This document shows, piece by piece, positions 1 to 23,000 of a stretch of 64,000 bases of DNA; position 1 is the stretch's first letter; each line of letters starts with the position of its first letter. The notes beneath the pieces were generated by a model. The model worked only from the letters and a program-made list of their open reading frames with translations. It did not search any database and was not told where the DNA came from. The stretch spans positions 107,662-171,661 of IMG/VR virus record IMGVR_UViG_3300028591_000092; one strand, written 5' to 3'. A program made the translations under genes and the position numbers. This DNA is from a virus. Taxonomy: Duplodnaviria; Heunggongvirae; Uroviricota; Caudoviricetes.

Positions 1-364
1 TTTTATGATTAGATACCACAACACCGCTATACGTACCGTCAGCAGCACTAATATAAGGTAAGACATCAGGCAGAGGAAGTGTAAGAAGATTTTCACTTAA
101 ATTTCCAACAGGTCTATCATATCCCTCTTCTACCGGATCGTTTTGATAATCATATGTAACACTTAATCCGTGAGAAAGTTTATCTGCTCTAGTAGCATCT
201 AAAATTCTAGTAAATAGAGTATTTCTAGAATAAGGAGTAGTCACATATTCTTCATTTTCATCAATATCAGTAGCAATCTAAAATTCTGTAGAAGCGGTAA
301 CCTAATTATAAATAAGTCCAATAGGAGAATCTTCAAAAGGTTTAGAATCAGGAGAAACGCAAAT

Positions 365-868
365 CTATTTATATCCAAAATCAGGTTCTTCTACATCATC
401 AACTAATTCAACAGAAGTAATTATATTTAATGACGGAACTAGTTTTTCTCCTTTGCAAGCAACAATACTAACAAAACAATCTTTTGTTTCTCCTGCTAAC
501 TGAAGTGCAATATTAAGTTTATCATGATCATTGTAGAATACAACTGCGTTAATTCCACTTAATCCTATATTCAATCCAGAAGCAAATGTAATAATTCCAG
601 ACTCTGCAGATTGTGCATATATATTAGATTCAACAGCCTTCTTAACAACATCTGCTTCGTCAACACACTTAAGATTTAAGAATAACTCATCAAATCCTCC
701 CTCAGCACTTCCATAAGAAAGAGTCGTTTTTATGTCAATCCACTTTACATTGTCCTCAGATATTGTGTGCGTGGGATTAGGAGCAAATAATTCCTTGCAT
801 TTATCACCAAAGGCAGCAAGAAATTCTTTTGTTACTAATTTCTTTGGGTTTAATACTTCTCTAATCAT
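365..868 (-). CDS. hypothetical virion/structural protein. ORF ends at TAG (365-367) and coding-like sequence continues to the window start, so the gene probably extends beyond position 1.
   Basis: ORF track. Stop codon is cta on the plus strand, i.e. TAG, consistent with readthrough elsewhere in this block. Confidence 0.4.
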   Translation of the reverse strand: MIREVLNPKKLVTKEFLAAFGDKCKELFAPNPTHTISEDNVKWIDIKTTLSYGSAEGGFDELFLNLKCVDEADVVKKAVESNIYAQSAESGIITFASGLNIGLSGINAVVFYNDHDKLNIALQLAGETKDCFVSIVACKGEKLVPSLNIITSVELVDDVEEPDFGYK

Positions 869-1470
869 AATACATCACTTAAATCAGATTCAACAGTTAC
901 AGGGTGAGAACTGGTCTAATGACCGTAATTCCAATTACCCATCTCATCTCTTGTTGCTTTATCTAATGTAACATCAAATGTTTTTTCCTCATCGTCTCCA
1001 ACTACAGTATGTTCAATCGATGAATAGATATCAGGAGCTCCTTGAATATCTTCCCAATTAACCGCTGCGGCTAATTCGCCTTTAAGTGCTTTCCATGTGC
1101 AAGTATCGGGGTCTAAAAAGAACATTTGACCTGTTTTTCTATTAATATAAATATTCATTTTTTCACAAATAGTTAGTGTATCAAAATCAACAAGAGGTTT
1201 GCCTAAAATATCTGCAGGAATACGTTCCCCTTCCCCAAAATAAGTAAGTGATACTGGGCAAGTAGGATCTGGAGTAAACGGTCTCGGGTGTAAATCACTG
1301 CCTACAACAACAGAAATTTCATCCCAATCTGCTGGGAATAAATCAGGGGCGTCCCAAACGCGTTTCCACGTATAGTTCGTTTGAGGAGTATTTACATTAA
1401 TGTAATATCCTTCTTGTGGGGTGTGCTCGATTTTAAAATCTCGTTGGCATAAAATATAATTAGTTCTCAT
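865..1470 (-). CDS. hypothetical protein. TAG at 916-918 is probably read through to TGA at 865-867.
   Basis: ORF 916..1470. In-frame TAG followed by 16 sense codons, then TGA. Confidence 0.4.
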
Positions 1471-1652
1471 TTCTTGTATTTTTTTCTATACCGCCTAAGG
1501 AGCATCAAGATAATCACTCCATTCATATAAATCATCTAGAACAATTAAAGCCAATATTTTTTTAAGTCCTTTAGGATCATTATCTCCAAGAAATCTAAGT
1601 CTATTAAATTTGTCTTTAATTGTTTCTAAAATAGTTGCTTTTACGTCAATCA

Positions 1653-2306
1653 TTATCGTCCACAATTACAAGAGTGAATAGGAGGACGTCTATACATTAA
1701 ACCTTCCTCACATTTAGAATTATTACCACAGCAAGATCCTTTACCTCTGCCATTAGAGGGACAATTACCAAAACAATTTCCAATAAGCTTGAAGTAGGCC
1801 TGTGCTGTATCAAGATCTTCTACAGCCATTGCTGCTGTATGCCCATAAAGAAGTAAATATTTTCTAATTACTTCATCAGGTATAAGATCCTCACAAGAAG
1901 TATCAGATTTTTCTTTCATAAAAAGATCATCCATCATACATCTATAAGCATAATTAACATCAGAACAAATTGCTGTACTTGTTAATTCATCTAAGTAATC
2001 TTCATTATTTATAGCCTTAAATGTTCCTATATATATAGCAGCAGTTGAAATTCCCAACTTATCAATTGGAAGTCTTACAACAAATCTTGTTTGATAAGAA
2101 TCTTCATCAGAATCAGTAGAATCGTCTACTGGAAACAAGGCTTGTGATAAATCATAAAACGATGATTTAAAATCATTTCCCTCTACAAATCGAACCTCTA
2201 ATTGCAAAGAGGTGAAATGAAATTCTTCCGGGCAACTAAATACCAAATCAAGATATTTGCTATCACCAGATATTCTAAATAAACTTATACTAATATTTTT
2301 ATTCAT
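1653..2306 (-). CDS. hypothetical protein with Cys-rich C-terminus (CxxC-type clusters)
   Basis: ORF track. C-terminal CCGNNSKCEEG...CNCG. Confidence 0.45.
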   Translation of the reverse strand: MNKNISISLFRISGDSKYLDLVFSCPEEFHFTSLQLEVRFVEGNDFKSSFYDLSQALFPVDDSTDSDEDSYQTRFVVRLPIDKLGISTAAIYIGTFKAINNEDYLDELTSTAICSDVNYAYRCMMDDLFMKEKSDTSCEDLIPDEVIRKYLLLYGHTAAMAVEDLDTAQAYFKLIGNCFGNCPSNGRGKGSCCGNNSKCEEGLMYRRPPIHSCNCGR

Positions 2307-2618
2307 CTTTCTTTTTCTTTTGTTTTGGTAATATAGAAATGCTGCCTCCTTTAAAAACAGAGGTAATTGAACTCAGTCCTAATAAAGAACATGCTGTAAT
2401 AATTAAAACCTATAATAATCCTTCAACACATTTGGAACCTCCTTCTGTTATTGTTAGATATATTATACATCCAAGTGCTACGAGCATGGCAATAGACCCA
2501 ACCAGTCTCTTGCTTGAGCCTATGCCATTCTCACTTAACATCTCTCTAAAAAATTCCTTTGAAGTTTTCATGTTTTTCTATCTTGAACTTCATCATTCTA
2601 CTTATTATTATCAAAAAG

Positions 2619-4778
2619 CTATGCCAGCTCAATTTGATTACGCTCTTTAACCAACTCAAGTTCTTTCTCTTTAGCCTCAGCCTTAGACTTAACATCATAC
2701 CACTTAATAGATTGCTCTGCAGTATTATTCTGTTGCTCGATAGCAAGTTTCTTCTCATTAAGTTGCTGAAGTTTCTTAGTATTAGCTTCAAGCTGTTGTT
2801 GCATTTTCTTGGCCTGATCTTGAGCCTGCTCTAATTGTTGAGTAAGTTGAGCAATTTGATTATTCTCAAGCTTCTTCTGCTTAATAGTCTTTCTAAGAGC
2901 TTCTTTCATTTCTGTCAAGCTCTTGCTTGTAGTAACATCAATAAGAATTTCAGGATCAACTTGATTGTTCTTAGCTAATTCAAGAGCCATTTGTTTAAGT
3001 AATTCCTGCTCTTTCATTATCTCTGTAGAATCAGCAAGATGTACATCATAATCAGTCTATGAATAGTATTCAGGCAAAGCTGTAAAGATTTCTTTTCTGT
3101 TGCCTAAAATTATTTGCCCTGTAAGACCTTTCTTATAAACTTTTCTTGCCAAATTTAATGCATCAGTAAGCATTTCTGCAACAAGAGTATCCATTACTTG
3201 ATAATATTGTTTAGTAATGATATAAGACTATTGCATTCCTGCTTCAACATTTGCCACAGCATCTCTCTGCTGAATACCGCCGAGTCTTTCTCTAAATACA
3301 CCAGTAATAGAGCTTGCTGTAGTTTCAACCATTTCAAGAGCTATTTGTACCGCCTATAAAGCACCGGGCTCAATCATGTCGTTATAACCATTAAATACTT
3401 GATTAATAACATCTCCTTCTTGAGAAGAATCAAATAAAGCCAAGCCAGATTTTCTATAAGCAAGATATTTCATAAGACGCTCTTCCATTTTATCTCCCAA
3501 CATTTCTGGAAGATGCGCTAAATCAACAATAGCACCTTTTGTACCGGAAAGAGCAATCATATTACTTTTAAAGTAATTTAAAAGATCAAAGTCGTCCTAT
3601 AATGAAGCTGTTTTTAGCATTAATGAATAAGGAGCGCCATGTCCATCGGTATAATACATTCCATTAATAGACAAAGTAACTTCATTAGGAGAATCCATGT
3701 CTCTAACAACATTATCGTCTTCGCCATCTAATATGTAAATATCAGATCCAATTCTAGTTACCTTATATCTTTGACCTTTTCTTTTCTTTCCGTCTTTGAT
3801 CCAATCAATCCATTCTACTTCGTAAACAGGAATTAAATCCCATTTACCATAGCGATTGTCGCTGTCAAACGTAACTCCAACACCATCAACAATACCAGGA
3901 TTGCTATAATCTCCATATCTAGCTCCACATGAAGTTATAAGAACATAATTTCTATTATCTTCATCATATACTTTAAGGTCGTCTAACTCATCAATATCTT
4001 TTTGAGTAAGATCATCTCCATATTTCATGATAATTTCTTCTTTAGTCATCCATTTTCTTACAACAGCTTTATATCCGTTTTTAAGATACTAGCTTTTAGG
4101 GTCTTTATCTACCCATGTATTTAAAGGATCTTCAATTTCAATTTGAAAATTCGTTCCAGCAGATGTTGGTATAACTTTATAATAAGCTTCTCCAGCGATT
4201 AATAGATCTAGTAAAATCTATTTTAATTTATTTTTAAAGTCAATTTTTCTTGATTGCAAAATATACTAAACTATGTTCTATCCAGCAATCTCGTAATTAG
4301 ATAGGAAGTTAATATCAACGGACTCCATTAAATCTTTAATCTCCTAATCTATAACAGGATCAATTGTTTTCTCTTCGCCAGGCTTTTTCCCAGCAAGAGC
4401 ATCATAGACGGCATTTGTGAGATATCTAGACACCCACTCTCTAATCTTAGAAGCTTTTTCAAGCTAGATATCCCTAAAAATGTTGGTTAGAGTTTTTTCA
4501 TCTTTACATGAAATCTTTGGTCTGATCTCTGTTGTTAAGAATTCACCAACAATTGCGTCTATGTGTTTTCTAATCAATGGAGTAAAGGAAATTGAAGTAG
4601 GATTTCCTATTCCATAATTTTTTTCAATATGTTCGTATTGATATTTATCTCTGATGGCATTATAATAATTATAAGCTTTAAACAGCCCTTCTTTTTCATG
4701 AACTAAATCGCCTATAACATAATCAGCCATCTCTACAAGATAATCGTCAGAACCTTTTTTACTTTTAGAAATTTCCAT
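2619..4778 (-). CDS. large structural protein, putative portal. One reading frame with at least 5 in-frame TAG codons; C-terminal coiled coil.
   Basis: ORFs 2619..3017, 3354..3560, 3597..4049 and 4464..4778 are all in the same frame. In-frame cta (TAG) at 3057, 3228, 3354, 3597 and 4089. Lies immediately downstream of terL in transcription order. Confidence 0.45.
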
Positions 4779-4786: not shown

Positions 4787-5065
4787 CTAATTTTCAGGAA
4801 ATGTTTCTATATTTCCGTATATTTTTAAGACAGCATGTTGTGATCTGTCAAGTCTTCTTTTCTTTAATTCAGTCTTTACAAAATCTAAAAATTCTTCATC
4901 TGACTCACATTGGTTAGCCATTACTAAACCGCCAAAATGCTCATCATGTAAATATAAAGTACATTTATACAAACCATCATTTTTTGTGACTTTTAAAGGT
5001 CTAGTATAAATGCAGCAATAAAGAGTTTCAATTAACTCTTTAACTTTTTTCTCTAAACCATCCAT
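4787..5065 (-). CDS. small hypothetical protein
   Basis: ORF track. Confidence 0.35.
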   Translation of the reverse strand: MDGLEKKVKELIETLYCCIYTRPLKVTKNDGLYKCTLYLHDEHFGGLVMANQCESDEEFLDFVKTELKKRRLDRSQHAVLKIYGNIETFPEN

Positions 5066-7361
5066 ATTTCATTGTAGATTGTTGAGGAACATTTTTTATT
5101 ATGCCAAAAACTTTCTGACCGTATTCATTTGTATAATACCCAACATTTTCTAATTTTCTGTCACCAGAATTATCTAATTTAGGAACTTTACCCTACATAT
5201 CTTCATTTGCCAAAAGGCAAATTCCAAAAGCAGCCACAATATCAAACTTTCGTTTGTTTTCAAATGAGTAACTTATTAACTGATCAATTACTTCTAAATA
5301 ATCAATTTGATCATAAAAGTCTTCAACATATTCCTATATTAATTCAATTTGGTGTTCTATAATTGATGTTACTGCAGGAACACCGTATTGTCTTTTATTC
5401 TATTTTGAGGTGGTCAATGTTACAGAAGGTCTTCTCATTAAATAGTATTGTTTCTGATACTAAATAAAATGATTTATTACCCCCACTCTAGTCGCCTCCA
5501 CCAAAGCTTTTGCATTATAGAACTAACATAATTTTAATGCTGTATCAAAAGCTTCTCTTACATCATTAGGTCTTTCTAAATATAAAGCAACTATTTTAGG
5601 CGCCTTCAATCCAACCTATCTTCGCATTACGACGATACAGAACTTAGAAACATCGTCTTGCCCAGTAGAAGTGTCTTTGCCCTAGTCAACAGCGTCTATT
5701 CCTATACAATATAAATTATTAAATGGAATACCTTTATCATCTGTCATTGGCAACTCTGTAATAAGAATCTTTCCTTGATCAGTAAATTCTGCTTTAGGCA
5801 TAGAATTTCTGTCAATTCCTCCTATATCCTTATTGTAATCCCAAGAAAGTCTAATTCTCTTAGGAGGCTCAACTGCTTTTAGTTGTTCTATATTTACTTG
5901 CTGTTCTGTAAGTTTTTCAGTATTAAATACATTATCTCCTTCAAGGATAAATGCATCTTCTGGAGTAAAACAGTACTCTGCCTTATCCTATAATAATTTT
6001 TTAGGGTCTTTTATTTTACTCCAAGTATTTTCATAATATGCCTTAGCTCTTTCTTCGTCTACTACTCCTCTTGAATCAAACCCAGGATTACCAGGGCTTC
6101 CAAACCACATAGTATAAGAAGGAATAAAATATCCAGTTAAAACAAATTCACCATTTCTAGTATAATTATGTTTATAAGGAAGCATAAAATACTCCTCTGG
6201 ATTATAAAACATGTCTTTGAGTGCAGCCAGTTTTGGTCCAGTATCTCCAGACGTTCCAAATACAAATCTAGAACCGACTCTAAATCCATTGATTTCAACT
6301 AAAGCGCGAGATTGAATATAAGACTGTGTTAATTTCTCATTACTACCAGCCTCTTCAAAATAAAGACTATATGTACGACCTCCACGTAATTTACGAGGAT
6401 CATCTATTGTAACGCCTTCTACTCTAGACTTCCATCCAACCTCGTTTTTATCTTTATCTACCTTAGAAGCAACCTTGACTCTAGAAGTATCCGTTTTCAT
6501 TCTTACCCTTCTAAAGCCACCTTGAGTTTGAGTATTAAGGAAGTCGAATTCATTCCACACTTTACTCAAAGTATCATCAACATATCTGTCAGCATAGGCC
6601 GCAACTATATTTCTTGTGTTTTTATGAAAAGTATATGCATCAGCAAGATTACTTGCAGCAATCTAAGAAGCTCCAACACCACGAGATTTAAAAGCTACAC
6701 CATCCATTCCAAGAGCTCGACATAAAGCAAGGTAATGAAAATACTCATACTATTTTGCTAAGAATGTGGGGAAGTTTTCCTCTTGTAACTCTGCACCGCT
6801 TTTATCTAATACAGAAGGAAGTCTAAAATAATTTAAGAAGAAATAATTTTCTCCCGTTAAAGTATATCTTCCAATTGTGACACCGTCTCTACATCTTCTA
6901 AATTCTTCCATCCAGTGTACTCTATGAGCAAATGTTCCAGGAAGCAAACTAGTATATTTTCCAGTCTATCTGTAAGTGTCAGCAGCTACTGTAAATACTT
7001 TAGGGTCAAAATCTAATCCTTCAGTTTTTGTTATAGGCCGATACCCAGTTAATTCATAAGATAAAGTCGGATCAAAATATAAAATAGGATCCCCCTTTTT
7101 TACATCCCAAGAATTGGGATCTTTTTTAACTTTTTTTGGCAATTCTTCTTGCTGAGGCTGTTCTTTATACTCAAGCATTTTCTTGACAAGTTCCTGGGTT
7201 TTTTCTTCTTTTGTTGGAGTTTTTCTCTCACGAAGCCTAATCGCTCTCTCTTTGTCAAGCTGTTTAGCTCTTTCTATAGCCTCTTCAGTAGTCATTTGTT
7301 GCCTTATCTTGCGTTCTTTAGCAGATTGTTTTGCTAGCTTTTCTAGCTCTTCTCTTGTCAT
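5040..7361 (-). CDS. terL: terminase large subunit (T4 gp17-like), translated through multiple in-frame TAG codons
   Basis: Same-frame ORFs 5988..6569, 6750..6947 and 6966..7361 joined by TAG at 5988 and 6966. HWMEEFRRCRDGVTIGRYT resembles the T4 gp17 VEEWKKCRDDIVYF region; LYFEEAG is Walker-B-like. Hand translation of ~5690-5760 gives IGIDAVD-Q-GKDTSTGQDD, a terminase nuclease-like motif. Frame-0 TAA at 5040. Confidence 0.6.
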
Positions 7362-7374: not shown

Positions 7375-7953
7375 TTAGTCAAATAGACCAGGTGTTGTAT
7401 CTCCTCTTAATCCAGAAGCTTCATCTTGCTCCTCTTTATATTGTGCCTCTAATTCTTTTAATGCTTGTAAGGCTTTTGAAAGATTTTGCATCTCTGTTAA
7501 AGTATCTTTAATTCTAAATACAGGCATTCCTGTATCTGTTCTTTCGTTGTAATCTATACTATCAATAAAGATTTGCATCTTATGAATATTATTAGTATAG
7601 GTTTCTACCATTTGGCCTATTACAGAAGAACTTTTCTATAGGTCTTGATACTTTTTGCATGCTGCTTTAAAGATCGGATCATTATACTCCTCATCAGTAA
7701 GTCTAGATGCTTCTAAAGCATATTTATGGCGATTGGCCGGAGTGTCCTTACTCCCAGGAGCGCCCCAGTCAATAGCCATATAAATATATATAAGTTCTCT
7801 AAAACCTCTTAATTTCTTTTTTCCTGTAGGATCTTCCTTACAGATATTTCTTTCATTAGTCCACAAGTCCGCAAATTCTTTTACCAAAAGAATTTCCGGT
7901 TCATTAATGATTATTTTATTTTCGGCACTATCATATGCGAAAAATTTAATCAT
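7375..7953 (-). CDS. hypothetical protein directly upstream of terL (possible small terminase subunit); one in-frame TAG at 7636
   Basis: ORFs 7375..7611 and 7636..7953 share a frame and are separated only by TAG. Assignment is by position relative to terL. Confidence 0.3.
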
Positions 7954-8222
7954 TATTTAAATATTTTTTGATAGTTTATTCTTCCACCAAGTTTTCTTAA
8001 TCCAACACTTTGATATGCCAAAGCAACATTAGAAGGATAATATTCTTTATCTTCTGTTTTAGCTACCCAATCAGGATCACCAACAAGTGCGCCAACTCTA
8101 TGTTGTCTAGATCCAATAAGTGCGTTACTCTAATAAGGGGCTTCTGTTGCATCATCAAAACTGTCTTGTTTAATTTGCCCTCTTTCTTTAGCTTCGTTTC
8201 TCTACGTCATTTGAAGTAATTG

Positions 8223-9032
8223 CTATTTAGGTAATGCTTGTGCAAAACTACCAGGAACGACAGATCTAGATAAAAGTTCTCTCGGTGCTTTGCGTTCTGC
8301 TTCTATAGCAGCATCATCAATACGTCTTTGCATCGCAAGTCTAGTTTGCCCTCCAAATTTACCATCTACAGCAAGGCCATTGTCCTTTTGGAATTGTTTA
8401 ATGGCGGCAATAGTATTTGCTCCCATCTTTCCATCAGCGCCAGTTCTGCCAACATTATATCCTAAATCAATTAATCGCTATTGAATCTGTTGAATATCAG
8501 TATCTTTAAACCCCTGTCTCTTATACCAATCTAATGGTCCTTCATACTGACCACTTCCACCAAAATACATATCAAGTCCAGCCTTACCAAGACCAAGAGT
8601 CATTTTTGCTTTAGCAACATTATCTTGAAATTCCTACTCATTTTTTTGCTGAATTCTAGTAGCCAAGTCAGGAGCAACTTCAGGAGAGCTGGGATCAAAA
8701 GTACCCGAAACAACTGGCGGGACTGTTCTACTTTTAACTGTATTTGAAAGCATCTCGTCCATGAGCTGGCGAGCCCCGGCAACAGATTCTCTTCTTGCTC
8801 TTTCTTGTGCTGATTTTTCAGCATCTCTTATAGCCCCAGAAGTAAAATTAACACTACCTCTTCCATATCCATCCCATGCTACTTGGTCTGCTTCTACTCC
8901 CCATCTTTTATACATAGGAAGCGCCTCCGCAGCTTCTTTTACTAGATACGCTCGTCTGTTGTCAAGAGGATCAAGAGCTACAGGCGTTAAATAGCCCATT
9001 TTTCTACTACGTTCACTAGAAAGTTCTCCCAT
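8223..9032 (-). CDS. virion-associated peptidoglycan-binding domain protein (PG_binding_1-like at the C-terminus)
   Basis: ORFs 8223..8426 and 8634..9032 share a frame. Motif AIKQFQKDNGLAVDGKFGGQTRLAMQR. Confidence 0.5.
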
Positions 9033-12189: not shown

Positions 12190-12558
12190 TTATTTAAATC
12201 TTTCAGTTAATCCTTCTGCAATAACCGCCTTCACGGCCTGTTCATTTACCATCCAATAGCAATTACCCATAAAAGGTACTGGAGTAAGTTGAAGAATATT
12301 TACTAATACATCATCTCCAGCATGTACATATTGACAATCAGGAGCAACTTCAATTACTTTTGCACATTCAATAGTAAGTTTCTTTTCTTCTACTTGACCA
12401 CTATCTGAATTAATAAAATCAGAGTTTAAATCAAGACCGTCTTCAGTTTGTTTGTTAAGATACGGATTTTCATCATAAACATCTACAATAATATTTTTGT
12501 AGATCGGTTTTAATTCTAAAGCATTATTCATAATCATTAAACATTTAATATTGTACAA
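12190..12558 (-). CDS. groS: GroES-like co-chaperonin (longer than canonical); real start probably at the internal MIMNN
   Basis: LKPIYKNIIVDV and the C-terminal AVKAVIAEG resemble GroES; lies immediately downstream of the groEL-like gene. Confidence 0.5.
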   Translation of the reverse strand: MYNIKCLMIMNNALELKPIYKNIIVDVYDENPYLNKQTEDGLDLNSDFINSDSGQVEEKKLTIECAKVIEVAPDCQYVHAGDDVLVNILQLTPVPFMGNCYWMVNEQAVKAVIAEGLTERFK

Positions 12559-14699: not shown

Positions 14700-15260
14700 T
14701 TATTTTATAAACCCACCAATTCCTATTGTTCCATATATACCAATTTCAGGACCATACCCGAATGTGACAGTATTGATATTAGCATGACCGCCAAATCCAA
14801 CACCAACTCCCACTGACCATACAAGACCAACTTTCTTTGGAGGTAAAGTTATTGTTTTAATTTCTTTGTCATATTTATAATCAAGATGGACCTTGTCAAT
14901 ACCAGCCTCAATACCATGATAGTCTATTTCTATCTTCACTTCAGAACTGTCATTCTTTATGGTGTCTTTATATTGGCTCCATTTCATTGGAAGTTCTACA
15001 AATGTCTCTCCATCGTTGGTAACATATACTGAGTCTACTTTCAAAAGTGTGTCTTTAACAAACACTGTCTTTGTTTTTTCTACAAGGCGTTCTGTTGTTA
15101 TAGTAACAGTATCATGTACTGGAACATATTCAATTTTTACGCCTGGTTGACTTCCTCCGCACTTTTGTAGTAGTAACAGTGCTAGTATCGCATTTATCAA
15201 CAAACTCACTAGAAGACTCCAGCGGGTCTTTATCCAACTTGATTTCTTTTCTTGTTCCAT
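14700..15260 (-). CDS. membrane protein with N-terminal TM helix and Gly-rich C-terminus (possible lysis-associated/spanin-like)
   Basis: ORF track; hydrophobic LLVSLLINAILALLLL segment. Confidence 0.4.
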   Translation of the reverse strand: MEQEKKSSWIKTRWSLLVSLLINAILALLLLQKCGGSQPGVKIEYVPVHDTVTITTERLVEKTKTVFVKDTLLKVDSVYVTNDGETFVELPMKWSQYKDTIKNDSSEVKIEIDYHGIEAGIDKVHLDYKYDKEIKTITLPPKKVGLVWSVGVGVGFGGHANINTVTFGYGPEIGIYGTIGIGGFIK

Positions 15261-15354
15261 TTTCTTTTGAATTAGGCTTATAGCCGAATTTTAAATTCCA
15301 CATTAACATTAAACTAACAATAAGTTTCTTAAACCATTTAATCATATTACTCAA
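15130..15354 (-). CDS. small membrane protein
   Basis: ORF track; TM segment LIVSLMLMW. Confidence 0.35.
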   Translation of the reverse strand: MSNMIKWFKKLIVSLMLMWNLKFGYKPNSKENGTRKEIKLDKDPLESSSEFVDKCDTSTVTTTKVRRKSTRRKN

Positions 15355-15562
15355 AATTTAATGAGTTACATTTATCCATCTCTTCTTTAAGCTTTACTGC
15401 TTTAACATGCCATTTCAAAAGCTTTTCAATATCTGTTTTAATATATTCAACTTCAAATTCTTTTTTCTTTCTTAAATTTTCTACTTGAATGATTAAAAGC
15501 CTATCAATAATAAATTCAGGATTTAACTACTATAACATCCAAGCATATAAAGAAAGCTAAAA

Positions 15563-15823
15563 CTAGTAGTGTATACCAGGGCAATCTTCCCAGTCTACTA
15601 AAGGATATTTTAACCTTTTCGTCTTTTTCTTACCCACGTCATATATGCTTTTAAAAGCTATCTTCTCGTCGCTCTTAAAATCTATAATGGTAAGGTGATT
15701 ACCATCTCTGATAATACAATCCACAACACCAACTAACAAAAAGTCATCGTCTAGTGGTATTTCTACTTTAAACTCATTAAATATACCTTTATTTGATTTT
15801 AAAAATTCTTCAGTTCTCTGCAC
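15563..15823 (-). CDS. C-terminal part of a PD-(D/E)xK-type nuclease-like protein; reading frame probably extends upstream to ~16140 through TAG codons
   Basis: VGVVDCIIRDGNHLTIIDFKSDEK resembles the D...(D/E)xK core. Confidence 0.3.
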   Translation of the reverse strand: MQRTEEFLKSNKGIFNEFKVEIPLDDDFLLVGVVDCIIRDGNHLTIIDFKSDEKIAFKSIYDVGKKKTKRLKYPLVDWEDCPGIHY

Positions 15824-16337
15824 AGAATATTTTTCTGTATCAATTCCAAAATCTGTTTTTACAGAATGTAAATTAGTGCAAAAAAGATTATGAATCTGCT
15901 CATGAACTAATGTGCCTGTCTATTTTGCTTCCTCATTCTTTTCTGACCACTCTTTTTCTAATAAAGCTCTTTCTAAATTAAATTTATCAATATCTAAATT
16001 ATTAATCTAATCAAGAATAATCTTCTTACTCTTCAGAAGCTTCATTTTAATATCAGCAAAATAAACTTCTGGCAAAACTTTTTCTAAAGCTTTATAAGAT
16101 AACCAAAAATCTTTAGAAAACGTCTTATACTAATTTAGTAATCCAGTCACTCCAATTCTGTGCATACACATTATACATTTTAACATACAAAATTACAAAA
16201 AATAAATGAAAATAAAAACAAAAAAGCACAGAATCCTAAACAAAGATTCTATGCTTCTTTTATTAATATTACGTATGAAAAAACATTAATATTTTAAAAA
16301 TTAAAGTATTAAAGTGACAATAAAACTCCTAATACTA

Positions 16338-16778
16338 TTATTCCCAAACAGAGTATGTACTATTCTTGTATATAAGAAATTGCTTCCTCTGTTTTCCTTC
16401 TCTATTTTTAAATCCTATATGTAACCACTTTTTTACACCACTATATTCAACTATACATTGATCAAAATCTCTTGAATATAAAAAGTCTCTTGCAAACTCT
16501 TTAAATCTTTCGAAATCTCTGTCAACAGGCCATAAGTCAACCGCTTGTGCCGTGCAATGGCTAGAAGTGGCACTTCCGTGAACTGCCTTATTTAATTTTG
16601 GACCTCTATATCCAGAGTTAACTTTAATAGGTGTTCCCCACGCGCTTCTTAAAGGATCCAAAATCTGTTCTACGAATTCCTCCAACCCAGGCATTAAGTT
16701 GTCTGGGATGGAGTTATCTATTTTTAATCGCTCGGCTGTTTCTGATTTTTCAAATTCTTCTTTTGTAAAATATTCCAT
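16338..16778 (-). CDS. peptidase M15 (D-Ala-D-Ala carboxypeptidase/VanY-like) endolysin-type protein
   Basis: VNSGYRGPKLNKAVHGSATSSHCTAQAVDL motif. Confidence 0.75.
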   Translation of the reverse strand: MEYFTKEEFEKSETAERLKIDNSIPDNLMPGLEEFVEQILDPLRSAWGTPIKVNSGYRGPKLNKAVHGSATSSHCTAQAVDLWPVDRDFERFKEFARDFLYSRDFDQCIVEYSGVKKWLHIGFKNREGKQRKQFLIYKNSTYSVWE

Positions 16779-17082
16779 AATTACTTAATATTCAATACAT
16801 TACACTTAATCTATTTAATTCATCTAACAAATTCAACACTTTGGTTGAAATCTTTCCTTCCATTTTTTCTAATAGAGGTATACATTTCTCTACGCATTTT
16901 ATTGCGTTAGACAATTCCATAATTACAATTTCTTCATTTGACATAATGTAATCTTCCTTTATATAAAATTTCTTTTGCTTGAGGGGATAAAAGATATTTT
17001 ATTTTTATTTCCTTCTAATAATTCGTTTTTATATCATTATTATCTAAAGGAATAATTTCCTAAATGTTAGTTTTTAACATAT

Positions 17083-17409
17083 TCACCAAGATTTTTTTAA
17101 TTTGTTTAAATCTTCTTCTGTATATGCTTCTAATACAGTATTGAAGCTAACTCTATATTTATAAGGACACTCTCTTAAAGAATCTAATTGTTTTGGTTCT
17201 CTTTTTATTCCTTTTAAAGAGTCCTCTAAATCTCTAAGAGCTATAGCAATTTCTTGCATTCCGCTTATTGTTTCATCTATATAATGAAACTCAACATTAT
17301 CATTTTCCATTTCCCTGTGTCTATTAAAAAATTTTTTTGGACGTTCTACTTTAAAGAATTCCCCATTAAATTTTATTACACAAGGCACATTTTTATATTC
17401 TGTAACCAT
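17083..17409 (-). CDS. hypothetical protein
   Basis: ORF track. Confidence 0.4.
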   Translation of the reverse strand: MVTEYKNVPCVIKFNGEFFKVERPKKFFNRHREMENDNVEFHYIDETISGMQEIAIALRDLEDSLKGIKREPKQLDSLRECPYKYRVSFNTVLEAYTEEDLNKLKKSW

Positions 17410-17426
17410 ATTAAAAATATATTATT

Positions 17427-17504
17427 GGTTGCCCTCCAAGGATTCCAACCTTGCTCCCCTGATTTAGAGTCAGGTATAATCAATTGCAAATATACGAGAG
17501 GGCA
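17427..17504 (-). tRNA. amber suppressor tRNA (anticodon CTA, reads UAG); amino-acid identity not determinable by eye
   Basis: Reverse complement TGCCCTCTCGTATATTTGCAATTGATTATACCTGACTCTAAATCAGGGGAGCAAGGTTGGAATCCTTGGAGGGCAACC. 7-bp acceptor TGCCCTC/GAGGGCA; anticodon stem CCTGA/TCAGG with loop CTCTAAA (U33, CUA, A37); T-arm CAAGG-TTGGAAT-CCTTG. Confidence 0.7.
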
Positions 17505-17533
17505 GTACTAGCCTCATTTAAGAGGCTATATAA

Positions 17534-18253
17534 TTAAAGTAAAGTTAATCTTACAGTACCATTCTCATTAGAGAGAAAAATATGATCTTCATGCTGACAC
17601 AAATAATCAGCAACTTCCATATACTCATCATTAGTCATCTCAACAGCTTCTCCTTTCTTAAGCTTCTCAACCATATCTTTTACAACACCGTCTTTTACAG
17701 CATCAGTAATAATACCGCCAAGAATATCATCACTACAGTCTTGGTGCTCATTACGATTCTCTCTAAAAACTTTGAATAAATCTTTACGAATGTCTTCAGT
17801 TAATTTATTAAACCAGTCCTTTTCTCTTTTAGGAACGGCATCATAAAGGTCTTCCAAGAAGATTACAAAATCATCTATAGGATTAGATTTTTTAACGGGA
17901 GTTTCAGTTTGATGGCACTCTTCTTTATCTTTATAGGGATCACTGCATAATGTATTAGCATCAAGTCGATCAAGAATATCTTTTAACACAAAAGCAATTC
18001 CTTCTGGAGCTTTTTCAATACACTCTTCTAATACAGCCTCATCTTGAGTATAGAAAGCACTGATAATCTCTTTCAAAGCTTTTAACTCTTTGTAATCTTC
18101 TTCCGTAAAATTCAGATGATCTTCTCCAAACAAGAACTTCTCCCAGCCCTCATTCATAACTACGTCTTTTTCCTCTTTTGTAAGATCTCTCATAAGATCC
18201 TTTTCTAATAACTCAATTGTCTTGAGCCCTTCTTTCATTTGTTCAATTGTCAT
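17534..18253 (-). CDS. acidic hypothetical protein
   Basis: ORF track, 239 aa. Confidence 0.5.
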   Translation of the reverse strand: MTIEQMKEGLKTIELLEKDLMRDLTKEEKDVVMNEGWEKFLFGEDHLNFTEEDYKELKALKEIISAFYTQDEAVLEECIEKAPEGIAFVLKDILDRLDANTLCSDPYKDKEECHQTETPVKKSNPIDDFVIFLEDLYDAVPKREKDWFNKLTEDIRKDLFKVFRENRNEHQDCSDDILGGIITDAVKDGVVKDMVEKLKKGEAVEMTNDEYMEVADYLCQHEDHIFLSNENGTVRLTLL

Positions 18254-18266
18254 ATTACTATAATTT

Positions 18267-18833
18267 TTACATCCAAAATTGTTGTGCTAAAGCGTCTTTC
18301 CCTATATGAAAATGAGCTCCAGTACCACCTGTTTTATTTAACATCTCTTGTGTTGATTCATCTATAATACCATATCCTTTAGCTTTCATATATGAGCTAA
18401 TAGCAAGATTTGATTTAATCATTTTTGCCAGCATATCAAAGTTTCCATCCTCTGGAACAATATCCATAGCCTCTCCAGAAGCGTGATAAGAAGGCTTTCC
18501 TTGCTTTGTTGTTGCTCCTTCTCTATAACCTGACGTCATTCTAACTTTAATTCCTGCAGAAGCAAACATGTCAAGAAGAGTTTTCAAATCCTAGTTAATA
18601 TCTCCCACTTCTTGTGCTGCAGGAGTTTCCTGATATCCTTCAAACATTTGACGCCAAAGATCAAAGTTAGAAGTCTCCTCTTTAGAATCTTGTTTGTCGG
18701 GAGATTCGACTTCTTCAGAGGAAACATATAAAGGCTCTTCCTTCTTCTCTTCTTTTTTATCTTTGTTTCTAACTGCTCTATCGTAAAATATTTGCTTTGC
18801 TCTTAGTATATTGTTATTATCAAATATCGCCAT
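18267..18833 (-). CDS. peptidase M15-like domain protein (SGYR...H...D...H motif), one in-frame TAG at 18591
   Basis: ORFs 18267..18587 and 18591..18833 share a frame and are separated by TAG. MTSGYREGATTKQGKPSYHASGEAMDI...GAHFHIG. Confidence 0.55.
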
Positions 18834-19053
18834 ATATGTCTAAATAATTAATTTCTCCACCAAATAAATGTTTCCAGCGTCTTGCATTAGCAGCAAACGT
18901 AGCCCTCTTGCGAGTTACTGGATTAGAAGAATGTTTTCCTCTTTGAATACATTCTTCTGTAACTTTGCCACCACAGAAATCAGTAAACTTACCTCTATTC
19001 TTTTTCTTTATATGGATGCCAGATCCATTCTTGTATTCTTCAATATAATTCAT
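18820..19053 (-). CDS. hypothetical basic protein
   Basis: ORF track. Confidence 0.3.
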   Translation of the reverse strand: MNYIEEYKNGSGIHIKKKNRGKFTDFCGGKVTEECIQRGKHSSNPVTRKRATFAANARRWKHLFGGEINYLDIYGDI

Positions 19054-19089
19054 TCTCCAATATGTTTAGCAGTTTCTAATATATAAGCT

Positions 19090-22000
19090 TTTAATTCTGG
19101 CAATTCTTCTTTATTTGACCCATACTTTTTAATAGCCCCATAAATAAATGCCAATGAATCATCTGTAATTCCATATCCCTATATTTTATAGAGATCATTA
19201 TATCTTGGTTCTACTGTTCCCATTTTAAAAATTTTTTCTAAGATTATATTCTTCTCTGTATTTTCTAGTTTTACGTAAAGGTATTACTAATAATAACAGC
19301 ATTATAATAAATTTTATCATTTGAAATAACTTAAATAATTTAATTTTCCGCCGTATTTCTTTTTCTTTTTAAACAAAGATGCTACATCTGAAAAGAACCC
19401 ATTATCTATTGTTTTTAATCCTTCTTTAATTTCTTGCCCAACACTTGGTTTTGGATAATATGTATCCATTGCTTCTTTCCAAGAAACCCCATCCACTCCT
19501 GCTGATTTAACGGTCTGATTCTTCAGATCATTAGCCCAAAAATTGATTTGACTATATGGTGATTTTACTAAAGTATGATGACCAGCATCTATGATACCTC
19601 TTTCATTCGGACGTATGATAACTTTATTATTATCAATTGGTATATAATCTCCACCTTCTCCAGCGCGTCCTGCCCTCTACGCAGGAACATTTGCTTTTCC
19701 AATATAAATATCTTCAATATTGGAATTACTTGCTGCGTTTAACATTGACTGTTCTCCAGACTTAAACTGTTTAGTAATCGAATAAACATCTCCGGAAGAA
19801 GTAGTTATAAACTAATTTGAATCTTGTGGATATTTCTATAAATATTCTTTTGCCGATTCTGGAGTCACTTTATTATAGTAATGAATTAACGTATCTCCAT
19901 ATTGCTATCCAGGCAGCTATTTATCTGAATAATATATAGACTTATCATGTATATATGGCAATTCTTTTTCTGTAACATTTTGTCTTATCTCTTCAGCTAA
20001 CTCCGGAGGCATTTCATACATATTTACACGAGGAGTTTTTTTATAACTGTAAAAAATTCCGGCATTATCACCAGCATATTCATTATTTAGCGGTTTTGTA
20101 TTTCCATTGGTTACTATTTTAATTGGAGATTTTTCATTAGTATTTTGTGTCTATTCCTGTTGAGATTGCTATTGCTGTCTCTATTGCTCTTTTTTCTATT
20201 GTGACACAGGAGGTTGCTGATACTAAATATTATTTTGTTGCGGCTGATAATGCTGCGCTAAATATTTCTAGATAGCTTCTGAACTTATTTCAGGAAATGT
20301 ATAATAAGTTTTTCCGTTTACAACTTTAGCTAAACCAATTGTCTATTGTGGGGTTAATGTTTTAATAATAGGTTTTGGTTTTGGCTAATATGGTCTAGAT
20401 GCTGCCTTCTAAACAGTCTAAGAATTAGAAGACTGAATATCAGTAGTTGTCTACTCAATAGGTTTCGTTGTTGACCGAACAACAAGTTCCTTTTTTACAA
20501 CAGGAGGTTCTGGTGGTTTTTCAACAAAATCTTTAGATCCATTATCAACCATCCATACACCAGCAATATCTTTTGGATTTACTCCTCTAAGCCCATACTG
20601 TATTTGTCCAGATTTTGTCTTAACCACATATGGATTTAACATGCTTCCCCTAGTCTACATTGCACCAGAAGCCCAGGGATTATATAATTTACCAGTGTTT
20701 TGCCAGTTCTATAATTCTTCATCAGATAATCTATATATTAAAGATGTATCTCCGTACTATCCCTAATATCCTGTGCCACCAAAGTCTCCGGAGGCAAGAC
20801 CCTCTGGGACAGAAATCCACGTACTACTTTTCTAGCTCATTCTCCAATATGTTTAGCTTCAATTAATATATACTCTTTTAAATCCTCTAGATTCTCCTTC
20901 TCAGATCCGTACTAAGCAATAGCACCATAAATAAACGCTAATGTATCATCCTGTATACATCCTACAATTGGGTGTAAATCTGTATACTTTGGTTCTACTG
21001 TTTCCATTATTTAAAAAATTTTAGATAATTTATCATTGGAGCTACCGAAACAGTTCTAAACCATGTATTATGCTATTTGTACATTTTCTCAGCTTCTTCT
21101 ATTGATTTAGGAATATCATATCCATATTTTTCAGCAAACTCTTTCGCATTCTATAAGATTTCAGATTTGTTATTTTCTATAAATCTCTCAGATCCTTTAG
21201 GAATTCCCAATCTTTCTGCTTCTGTTAATTTAGAAGTTGTAGGCTAAACAGGCCCGTTTTCAATTTGAGATACAAATCTATTGTCCAATTGTAAATTAGG
21301 ATTTTCTTTCAATAAAGCATTGTAGTAATCAGCCGCTTCAGCTTCTGTTCCTACACCTCTCCCAGTCTATCTTCTTATAAATACGTCTCTAGAAGGTATA
21401 CTAGGAGTATTATCGTAAACAAACTATATTTTACTCGGATTAGATAAAGCTTTATTAGAAATCATTAAAGTTTTACCTTCGTTTGCAGGATTTAATTTCC
21501 AATTAATAACCTCATCGTTAATTAGCTATACATAATCCGGATCTGATACAATTTTTAAATCCTTCGGAGAAACTCCTTTAGATTTAGCCAATTGTTCTAT
21601 TTTTGACCTTACCACATCATCAAAGTCGATTAAAGTAGAATTAGATGCTGTTGTTTTACCCATAGTTGGGCCATAGTATTTTACTTTGCCATATGTTCTA
21701 ACAGGACCGTTTGCAAACAGATCGAGATAATTTCTTTTTGCCGATTGCTATATACCTTTTTGTAACGCTCGCCTTCCAGTAGCGACACCCAGTCCGCCTA
21801 GCAATAATCCCGATACTAAATCCAAAGCCAAAGCTTTCCCTCCAGATAACTAATTATCAAGATTAAAAAGATTATAATAATATGAAGGCATACCTGCACC
21901 AAGTATAGCATTAAAAGCTCTTGCTGCATTTTCTTTCGCTTTCGCTTCTCCTTCTTTCTGTCTTTGTAATTCTTGAAGGTTATTTTTTATAGCAGCTTGT

Positions 22001-22150
22001 TGATTTTGGTAAGCATCTCCATTGTCTTTTATAATAACACCTGGCTAAGAGTTCTTCTTTTCTATTGCAAGAAGCTGTTCTACAGTCATTCTTTTCTGTC
22101 TAGCTTCAGCGGCTCTAGGATGTTCTATAGGTTCTATGTATTTTGACATG
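19090..22150 (-). other. coding-dense minus-strand region with no ORF of 60 aa or more except 20451..20642; interpreted as two or more TAG-rich (Gln-rich if TAG=Gln) structural genes
   Basis: Coding-like codon periodicity; frequent cta triplets on the plus strand; absence of long ORFs despite no obvious intergenic signals. Confidence 0.3.
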
Positions 22151-22544
22151 TTATAATAATTTACATTTTAATATGCAAAATTACAAAAAAATATTTAAAT
22201 AAAAAATTAGAAATCAAATATTCTTAAATACAATATATAAAAAGAATTTAAATATATAATAGTAAAAAGACTATTTAGTAAATATAAAAAAGAAGATTAA
22301 GTTAAACTTTAAACCTTTAATGATTAACTTTCCAAAGCTTCAATTCTAGAAAGTAAAGCATCATACTCTTCTCTTGTTACAAATTTATCTTCAAGCTTTC
22401 TTAAAAAGATCTTGAAAAACTCTCTTGTAAATACAATTATTTCTTTTTCGTTTTCTTCCATAATATTTTATTATTAATTTTTTTTTGATTTCCCTATTTT
22501 ATATAGGTCGGGATAAACATCAAATTCTACTATATAAATACCTC

Positions 22545-23000
22545 TCATTTGTCAACTAATGTGAATGATATCTGTAAATCTTTATTTTCTAACAATTCTT
22601 TTCTTCTAATAGATAATTCTCCTTTCCAAAATATTTCTGGATTTATTTTAAAAGTACCTTTTTCACCAGATATAATATTTAAATCTTTTAAAAGTTTAAG
22701 ATTATTAGTAATCTGATTATTAGCAATTCCTAAATCAGTACCCATTTGGTGTCTTTCCTGAGTAGAAAGAATTACAACACCAGTATTAAATCCTGCATGC
22801 TCACACATCCAATCCAGAACTCTTCTAGTTACTCCCTGCTTTAATTGCCTAACAGGGGCAAAATAATCAAAGAAAGTTATATAAAAATGATCTGGATTAA
22901 TTTTTTCTGTAAATATTTTCTATGAATCATACTTCAATATCTCTCCAGTTTCCTTATCAATTACTTCACTTTGAATTGTTTGTACAATTTTTTTAGCCAT
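22545..23000 (-). CDS. winged-helix DNA-binding protein (regulator/initiator-like), ATG at 22998-23000
   Basis: ORF 22545..22808 plus same-frame upstream extension; sits next to iteron-like repeats. Confidence 0.4.

What the first reader, a model, noticed from the sequence alone, without database searches (positions are those of the whole stretch)
1..22810. Late-gene block is written in an amber-recoded code: in-frame TAG codons split terL, the portal and other structural genes
Adjacent minus-strand ORFs share a frame and are separated only by TAG. Examples: 3057, 3228, 3354, 3597 and 4089 in the putative portal; 5988 and 6966 in terL; 7636; 18591; 365 and 916. TGA (865) and TAA (5040, 12537) still act as terminators. 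The plus-strand early-region-like genes (23.7-64 kb) show long uninterrupted ORFs. This is the pattern described for Bacteroidota-infecting crAss-like and Lak-type phages, where late genes are recoded (usually TAG to Gln) and depend on a phage suppressor tRNA. The suppressor here lies inside the block.
Basis: partly seen in the sequence, partly recalled or inferred. Interest (0 to 1): 0.8.

Follow-up and report, generated by a model that had tools for sequence, protein, structure and literature searches.

The report
Amber-recoded gene block in crAss-like phage
Most minus-strand genes of this roughly 164-kb crAss-like phage use the stop codon TAG as a glutamine codon and carry their own TAG-reading tRNA, which is a real but already well-described phage trick.

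Summary
On the minus strand of 1-23000, 18 of 25 genes carry 96 in-frame TAG codons. Reading through TAG raises ORF coverage from 0.51 to 0.88; reassigning TGA or TAA does not help. Homology runs across the TAG sites in terL, the portal, a peptidoglycan-binding protein, a PD-(D/E)XK exonuclease and a RepL-like protein.

In relatives, TAG columns align with Gln: 45% against a 4% background. This includes an invariant Gln in the nuclease's XLSLY stretch. A tRNA with a CUA anticodon lies at 17426-17504 (-). The plus-strand block reads in the standard code and uses TAG as a terminator.

The terL is crAss-like, the source contig is 164.5 kb, and public gene calls on it already match the read-through lengths. 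This is a new member of a known kind (Yutin 2021; Borges 2021; Peters 2022).

There are two refinements. First, the block is a mosaic: seven genes are TAG-free, including the chaperonin, the genes flanking the tRNA-CUA, and an endolysin-type M15 peptidase. Second, it is not purely late: a RepL-like gene and an exonuclease are recoded. Expression timing and tRNA charging are inferred, not shown.

The parts
1..868 (-). 3' part of a 469-aa gene (runs off the window) with 3 in-frame TAG (278, 302, 365)
   Evidence: The full gene is seen in source contig locus L085, 469 aa, 3 TAG
865..1653 (-). 262-aa gene, 3 in-frame TAG (916, 1486, 1495), ends at TGA 865
   Evidence: Relatives have Q opposite codons 53 and 56
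1653..2306 (-). 217-aa gene, TAG-free
2568..4778 (-). Portal protein, 736 aa, 12 in-frame TAG
   Evidence: phrog_6547 E=2e-38 and phrog_156 residues 188-710. Gln is conserved in relatives at codons 167, 394, 475 and 720
5040..7361 (-). Terminase large subunit, 773 aa, 11 in-frame TAG, ends at TAA 5040
   Evidence: phrog_6681 E=2e-75, one stretch 69-734. crAss-like tblastn hits. Codon 204 is Q in 82 of 84 relatives
7375..7953 (-). 192-aa gene upstream of terL, 1 TAG (7636)
   Evidence: Codon 106 is Q in 72 of 79 relatives
7953..9032 (-). 359-aa protein with a peptidoglycan-binding domain, 5 TAG. One TAG (codon 184) lies inside the PG_binding_1 match 177-234
9985..12180 (-). 731-aa protein of unknown function, 11 TAG
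   Evidence: The public gene call is also 731 aa
12190..14027 (-). TAG-free pair: Cpn60-type chaperonin (12537-14027, 496 aa) and a 115-aa ORF (12190-12537)
   Evidence: Pfam Cpn60_TCP1 E=1e-38. P(0 TAG) is about 1e-3 for the chaperonin. Both are stop-free in recoded relatives L003, L005, L006, L008, L010 and L014
14042..14688 (-). Two small genes (94 aa and 120 aa) with 3 and 2 TAG
15347..16186 (-). PD-(D/E)XK exonuclease, 279 aa, 7 TAG. The TAG at codon 210 aligns with an invariant Gln in the XLSLY stretch
   Evidence: Pfam PDDEXK_1 residues 121-271. phrog_298. Q in 69 of 69 relatives
16220..16260 (-). Intrinsic-terminator-like hairpin (18-bp stem plus T run) closing the TAG-free island
16338..18253 (-). 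TAG-free island: 239-aa ORF (17534-18253), tRNA-CUA, 108-aa ORF (17083-17409), M15 peptidase/endolysin (16338-16778)
   Evidence: Homologues in recoded relative L006 are also stop-free
17426..17504 (-). Suppressor tRNA, anticodon CUA, 79 nt with an encoded CCA end
   Evidence: ARAGORN. Rfam tRNA 24 bits, E=0.008, below the gathering score of 29
18267..18887 (-). 206-aa M15-peptidase-like protein, 2 TAG (18591, 18840)
19317..22149 (-). Two genes of unknown function (507 aa with 21 TAG; 380 aa with 9 TAG)
22545..23000 (-). RepL-like protein, 151 aa, TAG at codon 27 (22920)
   Evidence: Pfam RepL E=3e-8 over residues 3-139. The homologue in L083 aligns across the TAG
23001..23777 (.). Divergent intergenic region between the recoded and standard-code blocks, with iteron-like repeats at 23011-23147 and the GC-skew sign change
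23778..64000 (+). Standard-code block: 67 ORFs (stops TAA 44, TGA 15, TAG 8) and at least 19 tRNA genes, three of them tRNA-Gln(UUG)

Best explanation
The window is part of a 164.5-kb crAss-like (Zeta-like) phage genome with two divergent gene blocks. The plus-strand block (accessory genes and tRNAs) is written in the standard code. Most genes of the minus-strand block (terminase, portal, virion-associated and tail-like proteins, but also an exonuclease and a RepL-like protein) use TAG as a sense codon for glutamine, i.e. genetic code 15. In the recoded genes TAG accounts for about 31% of Gln sites. Decoding is attributed to the phage tRNA with anticodon CUA at 17426-17504, presumably charged with Gln by the host enzyme and competing with host release factor 1. 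This tRNA sits in a small island of TAG-free genes that can be translated before any suppressor exists. Full-length products of the recoded genes would therefore appear only once the tRNA has accumulated. Shown here: the in-frame TAGs, homology across them, Gln at the aligned columns, the existence of the tRNA gene, the standard-code islands, and recoding in the closest relatives. Inferred: the charging identity of the tRNA, dependence on it, and any temporal switch.
For: ORF coverage rises from 0.51 to 0.88 only with TAG read-through. There are 96 in-frame TAG in 18 genes. Single HMM alignments span the TAGs in terL and the portal, and the PG_binding_1, PDDEXK_1 and RepL matches also span TAGs. 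Opposite the window's TAGs, hits of at least 50% identity have Gln in 45% of cases against a 4.1% background. Of 16 strongly conserved columns, 8 are Gln, including 69 of 69 at exonuclease codon 210. Only 9% of aligned TAGs are shared with relatives, so TAG and CAA/CAG interchange as synonyms would. The tRNA-CUA has a cloverleaf and an encoded CCA. A tRNA-CUA lies 8.5-10 kb upstream of terL in relatives L005 and L018 as well, and the L018 copy closely resembles the window's tRNA-Gln(UUG) copy 2. All six closest relatives (terL 52-69% identical) have 5-16 in-frame TAG in terL. In the plus block TAG ends 8 of 67 ORFs, three of them with a backup TAA/TGA 2-5 codons later. Public gene calls on the source contig have exactly the read-through lengths (773, 736, 731 aa and others). 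The recoded block continues beyond the window, where seven more genes carry 2-9 TAG and no other internal stops. Literature: TAG-to-Gln recoding with suppressor tRNAs in crAss-like phages (PMC7886860); mass-spectrometric proof in crAss-like phages (PMC9523058); the temporal model and standard-code 'code change modules' (bioRxiv 10.1101/2021.08.26.457843).
Against: The tRNA-CUA scores below Rfam's tRNA gathering score (24 against 29 bits). It has an irregular D-arm and a T-loop of UUGGAAU. By overall similarity it is no closer to the window's tRNA-Gln genes than to its tRNA-Lys, so its Gln identity is not established from the tRNA itself. Four strongly conserved TAG columns are Glu, not Gln. 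No release factor or aminoacyl-tRNA synthetase gene was found in the plus-block ORFs scanned as a set or among the minus-strand genes scanned; about 100 kb of the genome was not examined. Against a strict 'late or lysis timer' reading: an endolysin-type M15 peptidase is TAG-free, while a RepL-like gene and an exonuclease are recoded. TAG positions are uniform along the genes (KS p=0.61). Promoter scans gave no usable information on transcription units.
Confidence: 0.88

Rival explanations
1. TAG is read as a sense codon, but for another amino acid (Glu, Lys or pyrrolysine).
For: ARAGORN labels the tRNA 'Pyl' because of its CUA anticodon. Four strongly conserved TAG columns are Glu and one is Lys. 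The tRNA is as similar to the window's tRNA-Lys as to tRNA-Gln copy 3.
Against: Gln is enriched 11-fold opposite TAG, whereas Glu (9%) and Lys (8%) stay at background level. Eight of 16 conserved columns are Gln, including an invariant one. No Pyl-pathway family was found in the plus-block ORFs scanned, and the large D-loop is unlike tRNA-Pyl (own knowledge). The L018 suppressor is clearly tRNA-Gln-like.
Confidence: 0.05
2. The interrupted ORFs are pseudogenes, or assembly or sequencing artefacts, and the block is not expressed as full-length proteins.
For: None specific. Under code 11 the genes look fragmented.
Against: Only TAG interrupts the frames, 96 times, with no frameshifts and no internal TAA or TGA. 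Essential genes (terL, portal) are affected. Six independent relatives show the same pattern at different positions.
Confidence: 0.01
3. The whole genome, or the host, uses TAG=Gln at all times. There is no code switch, and the plus block merely avoids TAG.
For: TAG is a rare terminator in the plus block (8 of 67). Three of those are followed by TAA/TGA within 2-5 codons, so read-through there would be harmless.
Against: Several plus-strand ORFs end at TAG with the next in-frame stop 17-44 codons away. One TAG (53278) falls at an overlapping gene junction, as true stops do. TAG-free islands within the recoded block are conserved across relatives, which implies selection for translatability without suppression. 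No bacterial host with TAG=Gln is known (own knowledge; hosts are reported to use the standard code).
Confidence: 0.05
4. Recoding and suppressor function as described, but the purpose is not timing of late or lysis genes. Instead it harms host translation by read-through of host TAG stops, or protects the phage genes from being expressed or exploited outside the right context.
For: The endolysin-type gene is not gated by TAG, whereas the RepL-like and exonuclease genes are. Anti-host and anti-defence roles are proposed in PMC7886860 and PMC12386605.
Against: No direct evidence either way from sequence. The standard-code island around the tRNA and the clean standard-code plus block fit a temporal switch equally well.
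Confidence: 0.2

Closest known systems
TAG-to-Gln (code 15) recoded crAss-like phages with suppressor tRNAs (Yutin et al. 2021, PMC7886860; Peters et al. 2022, PMC9523058)
   Same: Homologous terL and portal. In-frame TAG in signature genes, recoding confined to part of the genome, a phage tRNA-CUA, and relatives that switch between TAG, TGA and the standard code over short distances. Genome size of 164.5 kb falls in the 145-192 kb range given for one of the new families.
   Different: The lineage is distant: terL is at most 41% identical to anything in the phage record collection and 69% to the best IMG/VR contig. No intron or intein interrupts terL here, unlike relative L002. Family placement by phylogeny was not done.
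'Code change module' of TGA-recoded Jade phages and the temporal recoding model (Borges et al., bioRxiv 10.1101/2021.08.26.457843)
   Same: The suppressor tRNA is embedded among genes written in the standard code, next to lysis-type genes, inside or beside recoded modules.
   Different: No tRNA synthetase or release factor accompanies the tRNA here; the two flanking ORFs have no detectable homologues. The adjacent endolysin-type gene is itself TAG-free, whereas lysis genes are reported as preferentially recoded.
Zeta crAss-like phages such as Lera (PMC12386605) and phAss-1 / Phassvirus (PMC10607447)
   Same: Large genomes with many tRNA genes. A forward block of metabolism and tRNA genes sits opposite a structural block. 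Suppressor tRNAs are present, and TAG terminators are followed shortly by a second stop.
   Different: Lera uses TGA suppression and carries an apparently unused tRNA-CUA. Here TAG is heavily used (96 sites) and no TGA suppressor was seen in the window.

Membership tests
Stop-codon-recoded phage, genetic code 15 (TAG=Gln) | In-frame TAG in conserved genes, with homology continuing across the sites | tested here: met
   terL, portal, PG_binding_1, PDDEXK_1 and RepL matches all span TAGs
Stop-codon-recoded phage, genetic code 15 (TAG=Gln) | TAG positions correspond to Gln in homologues | tested here: met
   Q is 45% against a 4.1% background. Eight of 16 conserved columns are Q, one of them invariant, 69 of 69
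Stop-codon-recoded phage, genetic code 15 (TAG=Gln) | Phage-encoded suppressor tRNA with anticodon CUA | tested here: met
   17426-17504 (-) by ARAGORN. The Rfam score of 24 bits is below the gathering score, so the gene is atypical
Stop-codon-recoded phage, genetic code 15 (TAG=Gln) | The suppressor tRNA has glutamine identity | tested here: inconclusive
   It shares U1:A72, G2:C71 and A73 with the window's tRNA-Gln copies 2 and 3, but overall similarity ties with tRNA-Lys
Stop-codon-recoded phage, genetic code 15 (TAG=Gln) | Part of the genome stays in the standard code, with TAG as a terminator | tested here: met
   The plus block gains only 0.04 coverage with TAG read-through, and 8 of 67 ORFs end in TAG
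Stop-codon-recoded phage, genetic code 15 (TAG=Gln) | Gln actually incorporated at TAG (proteomics) | not testable with these tools
   Needs mass spectrometry. Done for other crAss-like phages in PMC9523058
Recoding restricted to late (structural and lysis) genes | Recoded genes are the late ones; early and replication genes are in the standard code | tested here: inconclusive
   terL and portal are recoded. So are the RepL-like gene and the exonuclease, while the chaperonin and the endolysin-type peptidase are TAG-free. Expression timing cannot be read from sequence
Crassvirales / crAss-like phages (Zeta-like group) | Homologous terL and portal | tested here: met
   terL is 26-29% identical to named Crassvirales terL over 71-80% of its length. 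It matches phrog_6681 and the portal matches phrog_6547
Crassvirales / crAss-like phages (Zeta-like group) | Genome of 145-192 kb for the large-genome family | tested here: met
   The source contig is 164,543 bp, and many relatives lie on 145-190 kb contigs
Crassvirales / crAss-like phages (Zeta-like group) | crAss-type major capsid protein, multisubunit RNA polymerase, and phylogenetic placement | not tested
   Neither gene was identified in the window or in the extra 8 kb of L085. No tree was built
Lak megaphages | Genome over 500 kb and Lak-type signature genes | tested here: not met
   The contig is 164.5 kb, and the named tblastn hits to terL are crAss-like or other Bacteroidota-phage records, none a Lak phage
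Pyrrolysine decoding | pyl genes, tRNA-Pyl architecture, Lys-like positions | tested here: not met
   No pyl families in the plus-block ORFs scanned. TAG columns are Gln, not Lys

The most novel reading that the evidence does not exclude
The recoded block is a conserved mosaic rather than a uniform 'late' module. A chaperonin pair stays TAG-free, as does a small operon that carries the suppressor tRNA, two ORFan genes and an endolysin-type peptidase. The chaperonin pair is stop-free in six relatives with different TAG or TGA codes; the operon genes have stop-free homologues in one relative (L006). A RepL-like initiator and an exonuclease, in contrast, are gated by TAG. If this reflects function, recoding here acts as a switch for a whole replichore, replication functions included. 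The two ORFans flanking the tRNA (17083-17409 and 17534-18253) could then be new code-switch factors, for example acting on release factor 1 or on the tRNA. In that case the lysis-timer model would not apply to this lineage.
Probability: 0.25. Interest if true: 0.5.

Novelty: new member of a known kind. Interest (0 to 1): 0.25.

Why it matters
For annotation, translating this contig with code 11 shatters terL, the portal and about 16 other genes. With code 15 they become full-length proteins, and public gene calls for the contig already reflect this. For biology, it adds a divergent lineage to the known set of amber-recoded crAss-like phages. It also gives a clean example of standard-code islands kept inside a recoded block, and of recoding that reaches replication-type genes while sparing an endolysin-type gene. 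Both points bear on the debated purpose of phage recoding: a lysis timer, or a general or anti-host switch.

Tried and rejected
- **Pfam on terL and portal:** no match to either fused protein. PHROGs was needed.
- **DNA-level search of phage records:** only a 164-bp match at 73% identity.
- **tRNA identity by pairwise similarity:** ambiguous. tRNA-Lys ties with tRNA-Gln copy 3. The MFE fold of the tRNA is not a cloverleaf, z=-1.7.
- **Promoter scans:** neither the sigma-70 scan nor the Bacteroidota-type motif (TTTG...TAnnTTTG) was enriched over shuffles. Transcription units remain undefined apart from one strong terminator.
- **115-aa ORF after the chaperonin:** not significantly similar to E. 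coli GroES (BLASTP E=0.23; no Pfam or PHROG hit). A co-chaperonin role is only a guess.
- **ORFs flanking the tRNA:** no Pfam, PHROG or PDB match and no viral-contig relatives by pattern search. Only weak homologues exist in L006.
- **tRNA-CUA in L003 and L006:** a relaxed ARAGORN run and a CTCTAAA search found none.
- **Source-contig look-up with Gln-substituted proteins:** TAG-free proteins were used instead.
- **TAGs clustering near 5' ends:** rejected; the distribution is uniform.
- **First C-terminal-motif script:** timed out and was rerun.

Full report
**Observation**

The minus strand of 1-23000 carries a tight array of ORFs. Under the standard bacterial code they are chopped into fragments. 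Stop-to-stop ORFs of at least 100 aa cover 51% of 1-23700 under code 11 and 88% when TAG is read through. Reading through TGA gives 53%. Reading through TAA gives 64%, but it also raises the non-coding strand to 75%, so that rise is compositional noise.

Delimiting ORFs by TAA/TGA only gives 25 minus-strand genes, and 18 of them contain in-frame TAG. In total there are 96 TAG in 7005 codons. TGA 865, TAA 5040 and TAA 12537 are the ends of the 262-aa gene, of terL and of the chaperonin. In 23700-64000 the plus strand gains only 0.04 coverage from TAG read-through.

**Homology across the TAG sites**

The fused 773-aa product of 5040-7361 matches the PHROG terminase large-subunit family phrog_6681 at E=2e-75. 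The match is a single stretch, residues 69-734, covering all 11 TAGs. The fused 736-aa product of 2568-4778 matches the portal families phrog_6547 and phrog_156. Pfam domain matches also span TAGs:
- PG_binding_1 in 7953-9032 and PDDEXK_1 in 15347-16186.
- RepL in 22545-23000. A homologue in an IMG/VR contig aligns across that gene's TAG.

It is not met.

**Which amino acid TAG encodes**

I aligned all minus-strand proteins against 83 related loci with tblastn. Among hits of at least 50% identity, the residue opposite a window TAG is Gln in 45% of cases, against a Gln background of 4.1%. Glu (9%) and Lys (8%) are at background. Another 9% are TAG in the relative too.

Sixteen TAG columns are strongly conserved (at least 70% one residue). 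Eight are Gln, four Glu, and one each Asn, Met, Ala and Lys. The Gln columns include:
- terL codon 204: 82 of 84.
- Portal codons 167, 394, 475 and 720.
- Codon 106 of the 192-aa gene 7375-7953.
- Exonuclease codon 210: 69 of 69, in the stretch XLSLY. From my own knowledge this corresponds to the QxxxY motif of RecB-family PD-(D/E)XK nucleases.

TAG makes up about 31% of Gln sites in the recoded genes, more than CAG does. Its positions turn over between relatives, as expected for a synonymous codon.

**The suppressor tRNA**

ARAGORN finds a 79-nt tRNA with anticodon CUA at 17426-17504 (-), with an encoded CCA end. The gene is atypical:
- Rfam's tRNA model gives 24 bits (E=0.008 in a local search), below the gathering score of 29.
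- The D-arm is irregular and the T-loop reads UUGGAAU.
- Its overall similarity to the window's other tRNAs does not single out tRNA-Gln.

It does share U1:A72, G2:C71, discriminator A73 and the GUAUA D-stem strand with tRNA-Gln(UUG) copies 2 and 3. Relatives L005 and L018 carry a tRNA-CUA at the same relative place, 8.5-10 kb upstream of terL on the same strand. The L018 copy is plainly a tRNA-Gln(UUG) derivative. Charging with Gln is therefore inferred mainly from the protein alignments, not from the tRNA.

**What the element belongs to**

By tblastn the terL is 26-29% identical to terL of named Crassvirales phages. It is 41% identical to two unannotated human-gut phage records. A pattern search of IMG/VR returned 80 loci, many on 145-190 kb contigs.

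The window itself comes from a 164,543-bp ENA metagenome contig, ERZ27256846 k141_3103349. Its public gene calls have exactly the read-through lengths (773, 736, 731, 359 aa and so on), so a code-aware gene caller has already handled it. Beyond the window's left edge the block continues. Seven more genes, including a collagen-repeat fibre-like protein, each carry 2-9 TAG and no other internal stop.

Coding in terL varies across relatives:
- All six closest relatives (terL 52-69% identical) have 5-16 in-frame TAG.
- The next clade (47-50%) has three in-frame TGA.
- Fifty-two of the 82 loci compared have none.

This is the short-range code switching described for crAss-like phages (PMC7886860). 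Only 1 of 24 minus-strand genes has a Shine-Dalgarno-like motif. From my own knowledge that fits a Bacteroidota host, but it is weak evidence.

**Refinement 1: the block is a mosaic**

Seven minus-strand genes have no TAG: 1653-2306, 12190-12537, 12537-14027 (Cpn60 chaperonin, Pfam E=1e-38), 14700-15260, 16338-16778 (M15 peptidase, phrog_894 'endolysin' E=3e-27), 17083-17409 and 17534-18253.

Using the counts, TAG has a 31% share of Gln sites in the recoded genes. The chance of zero TAG among the 33 Gln codons of the seven TAG-free genes is then about 5e-6. On a per-codon basis it is 4e-12.

The pattern is conserved. The chaperonin and the following 115-aa ORF are stop-free in TAG-recoded relatives L003, L005, L006 and L008 and in TGA-recoded L010 and L014. 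L006 also keeps stop-free homologues of 17534-18253, 17083-17409 and the peptidase.

The tRNA-CUA lies inside the island 18253-16338. That island is followed by a terminator-like hairpin with an 18-bp stem at 16260-16220. This resembles the standard-code 'code change module' described for Jade phages. Here, however, there is no synthetase or release factor beside the tRNA. None appeared among the plus-block ORFs scanned as a set or among the minus-strand genes scanned.

**Refinement 2: the block is not purely late or structural**

A PD-(D/E)XK exonuclease has the highest TAG share of Gln sites among genes longer than 100 aa (7 of 10). A RepL-like protein sits directly beside iteron-like repeats (23011-23147) and the GC-skew sign change. 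It has a TAG at codon 27. Conversely the endolysin-type peptidase is TAG-free. TAG positions are uniform along the genes (KS p=0.61). Timing of expression cannot be read from the sequence, and promoter scans were uninformative.

**The plus block**

There are 67 ORFs of at least 60 aa, ending in TAA (44), TGA (15) or TAG (8). Three of the TAG terminators (26913, 30469, 54912) are followed by TAA/TGA within 2-5 codons. One TAG (53278) lies at an overlapping gene junction. The contents are accessory genes: GNAT acetyltransferases, a methyltransferase, a radical-SAM protein, an SPFH protein and a nucleoside deoxyribosyltransferase. There are also at least 19 tRNA genes, three of them tRNA-Gln(UUG). 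The ORFs are uninterrupted but mostly short.

**Comparison with what is known**

- Amber recoding to Gln in part of the genome, with phage suppressor tRNAs, is described for crAss-like phages (PMC7886860).
- It is validated by mass spectrometry (PMC9523058).
- It is modelled as a temporal switch (bioRxiv 10.1101/2021.08.26.457843).
- It is discussed for Zeta crAss-like phages and phAss-1 (PMC12386605; PMC10607447).

The present case meets every sequence-level criterion for that kind. The Lak comparison is not supported: the contig is 164.5 kb and its named terL relatives are crAss-like or other Bacteroidota-phage records. Pyrrolysine is rejected.

**Verdict**

The finding is a new member of a known kind, in a lineage without close sequenced relatives. 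Interest is low to moderate. Its value lies in correct annotation and in the conserved standard-code islands and recoded replication-type genes, which sit awkwardly with a pure lysis-timer model.

Noticed in passing
window 24280-24352 (+): Full-length Pistol self-cleaving ribozyme (Rfam RF02679, 68.2 bits against a gathering score of 34.5). It overlaps the end of the first plus-strand ORF, 23778-24299.
   Followed up: partly
window minus-strand gene ends at 7953, 9985, 14326, 19317, 21007: Five otherwise unrelated proteins end in the same C-terminal motif, GG(K/R/T)(L/I/V)NY..(I/Y/F)FK followed by a stop. Examples are GGRINYQKIFK and GGKLNYTKYFK; the fifth reads MINYLKFFK and lacks the GG. One has a peptidoglycan-binding domain. 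One more copy ends a gene in relative L003 (at 5423). This may be a shared assembly or packaging tag; no known family was identified.
   Followed up: partly
window 23001-23400: AT-rich region directly upstream of the RepL-like gene. It has clustered direct and inverted copies of TATATGTGTAC-type repeats (23011-23147) and coincides with the change of GC-skew sign. It is a likely replication origin or operator region.
   Followed up: partly
window 23400-23780: Visibly G+C-richer stretch between the AT-rich repeats and the first plus-strand gene. It has no convincing ORF and no Rfam match.
   Followed up: no
window 12190-14027 (-): Phage-encoded Cpn60/GroEL-type chaperonin (496 aa), followed by a 115-aa ORF with no significant similarity to GroES. 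The pair is conserved in synteny in relatives.
   Followed up: partly
window 47582-49273 (+): 563-aa protein with a weak match to the Ro60 vWA domain (E=4e-5, 24.1 bits, below the 27.7 cut-off). It sits among tRNA and tRNA-like genes, including an irregular 'tRNA-???' at 46525-46598. A Ro60/Y-RNA-like pairing is possible but unverified.
   Followed up: no
window 30972-31076 (+); also 58080-58153, 58577-58664, 60782-60857 (+): tRNA-like elements found by Rfam but not by default ARAGORN. The first is 105 nt, with a possible 37-nt insertion. Conversely, four ARAGORN tRNAs, including the suppressor, fall below Rfam's threshold. The tRNA complement is therefore about 24 and partly non-canonical.
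   Followed up: partly
window 32253-34007: About 1.75 kb with no ORF longer than 47 aa on the plus strand (69 aa on the minus strand) and no Rfam match, inside an otherwise gene-dense block.
   Followed up: no
L002 (MT835539.1) 20001-24308 and 24654-26807: In this TAG-recoded relative, terL is split into three collinear pieces separated by inserts of about 1.1 kb (intron- or intein-like). The portal alignment contains 45 in-frame stops.
   Followed up: no
L085 17026-20654 (source contig beyond the window's left edge): Protein of more than 1200 aa with collagen-like GTNGTDG repeats and 9 in-frame TAG, probably a tail fibre. It shows that the recoded block extends at least 8 kb past the window.
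   Followed up: partly
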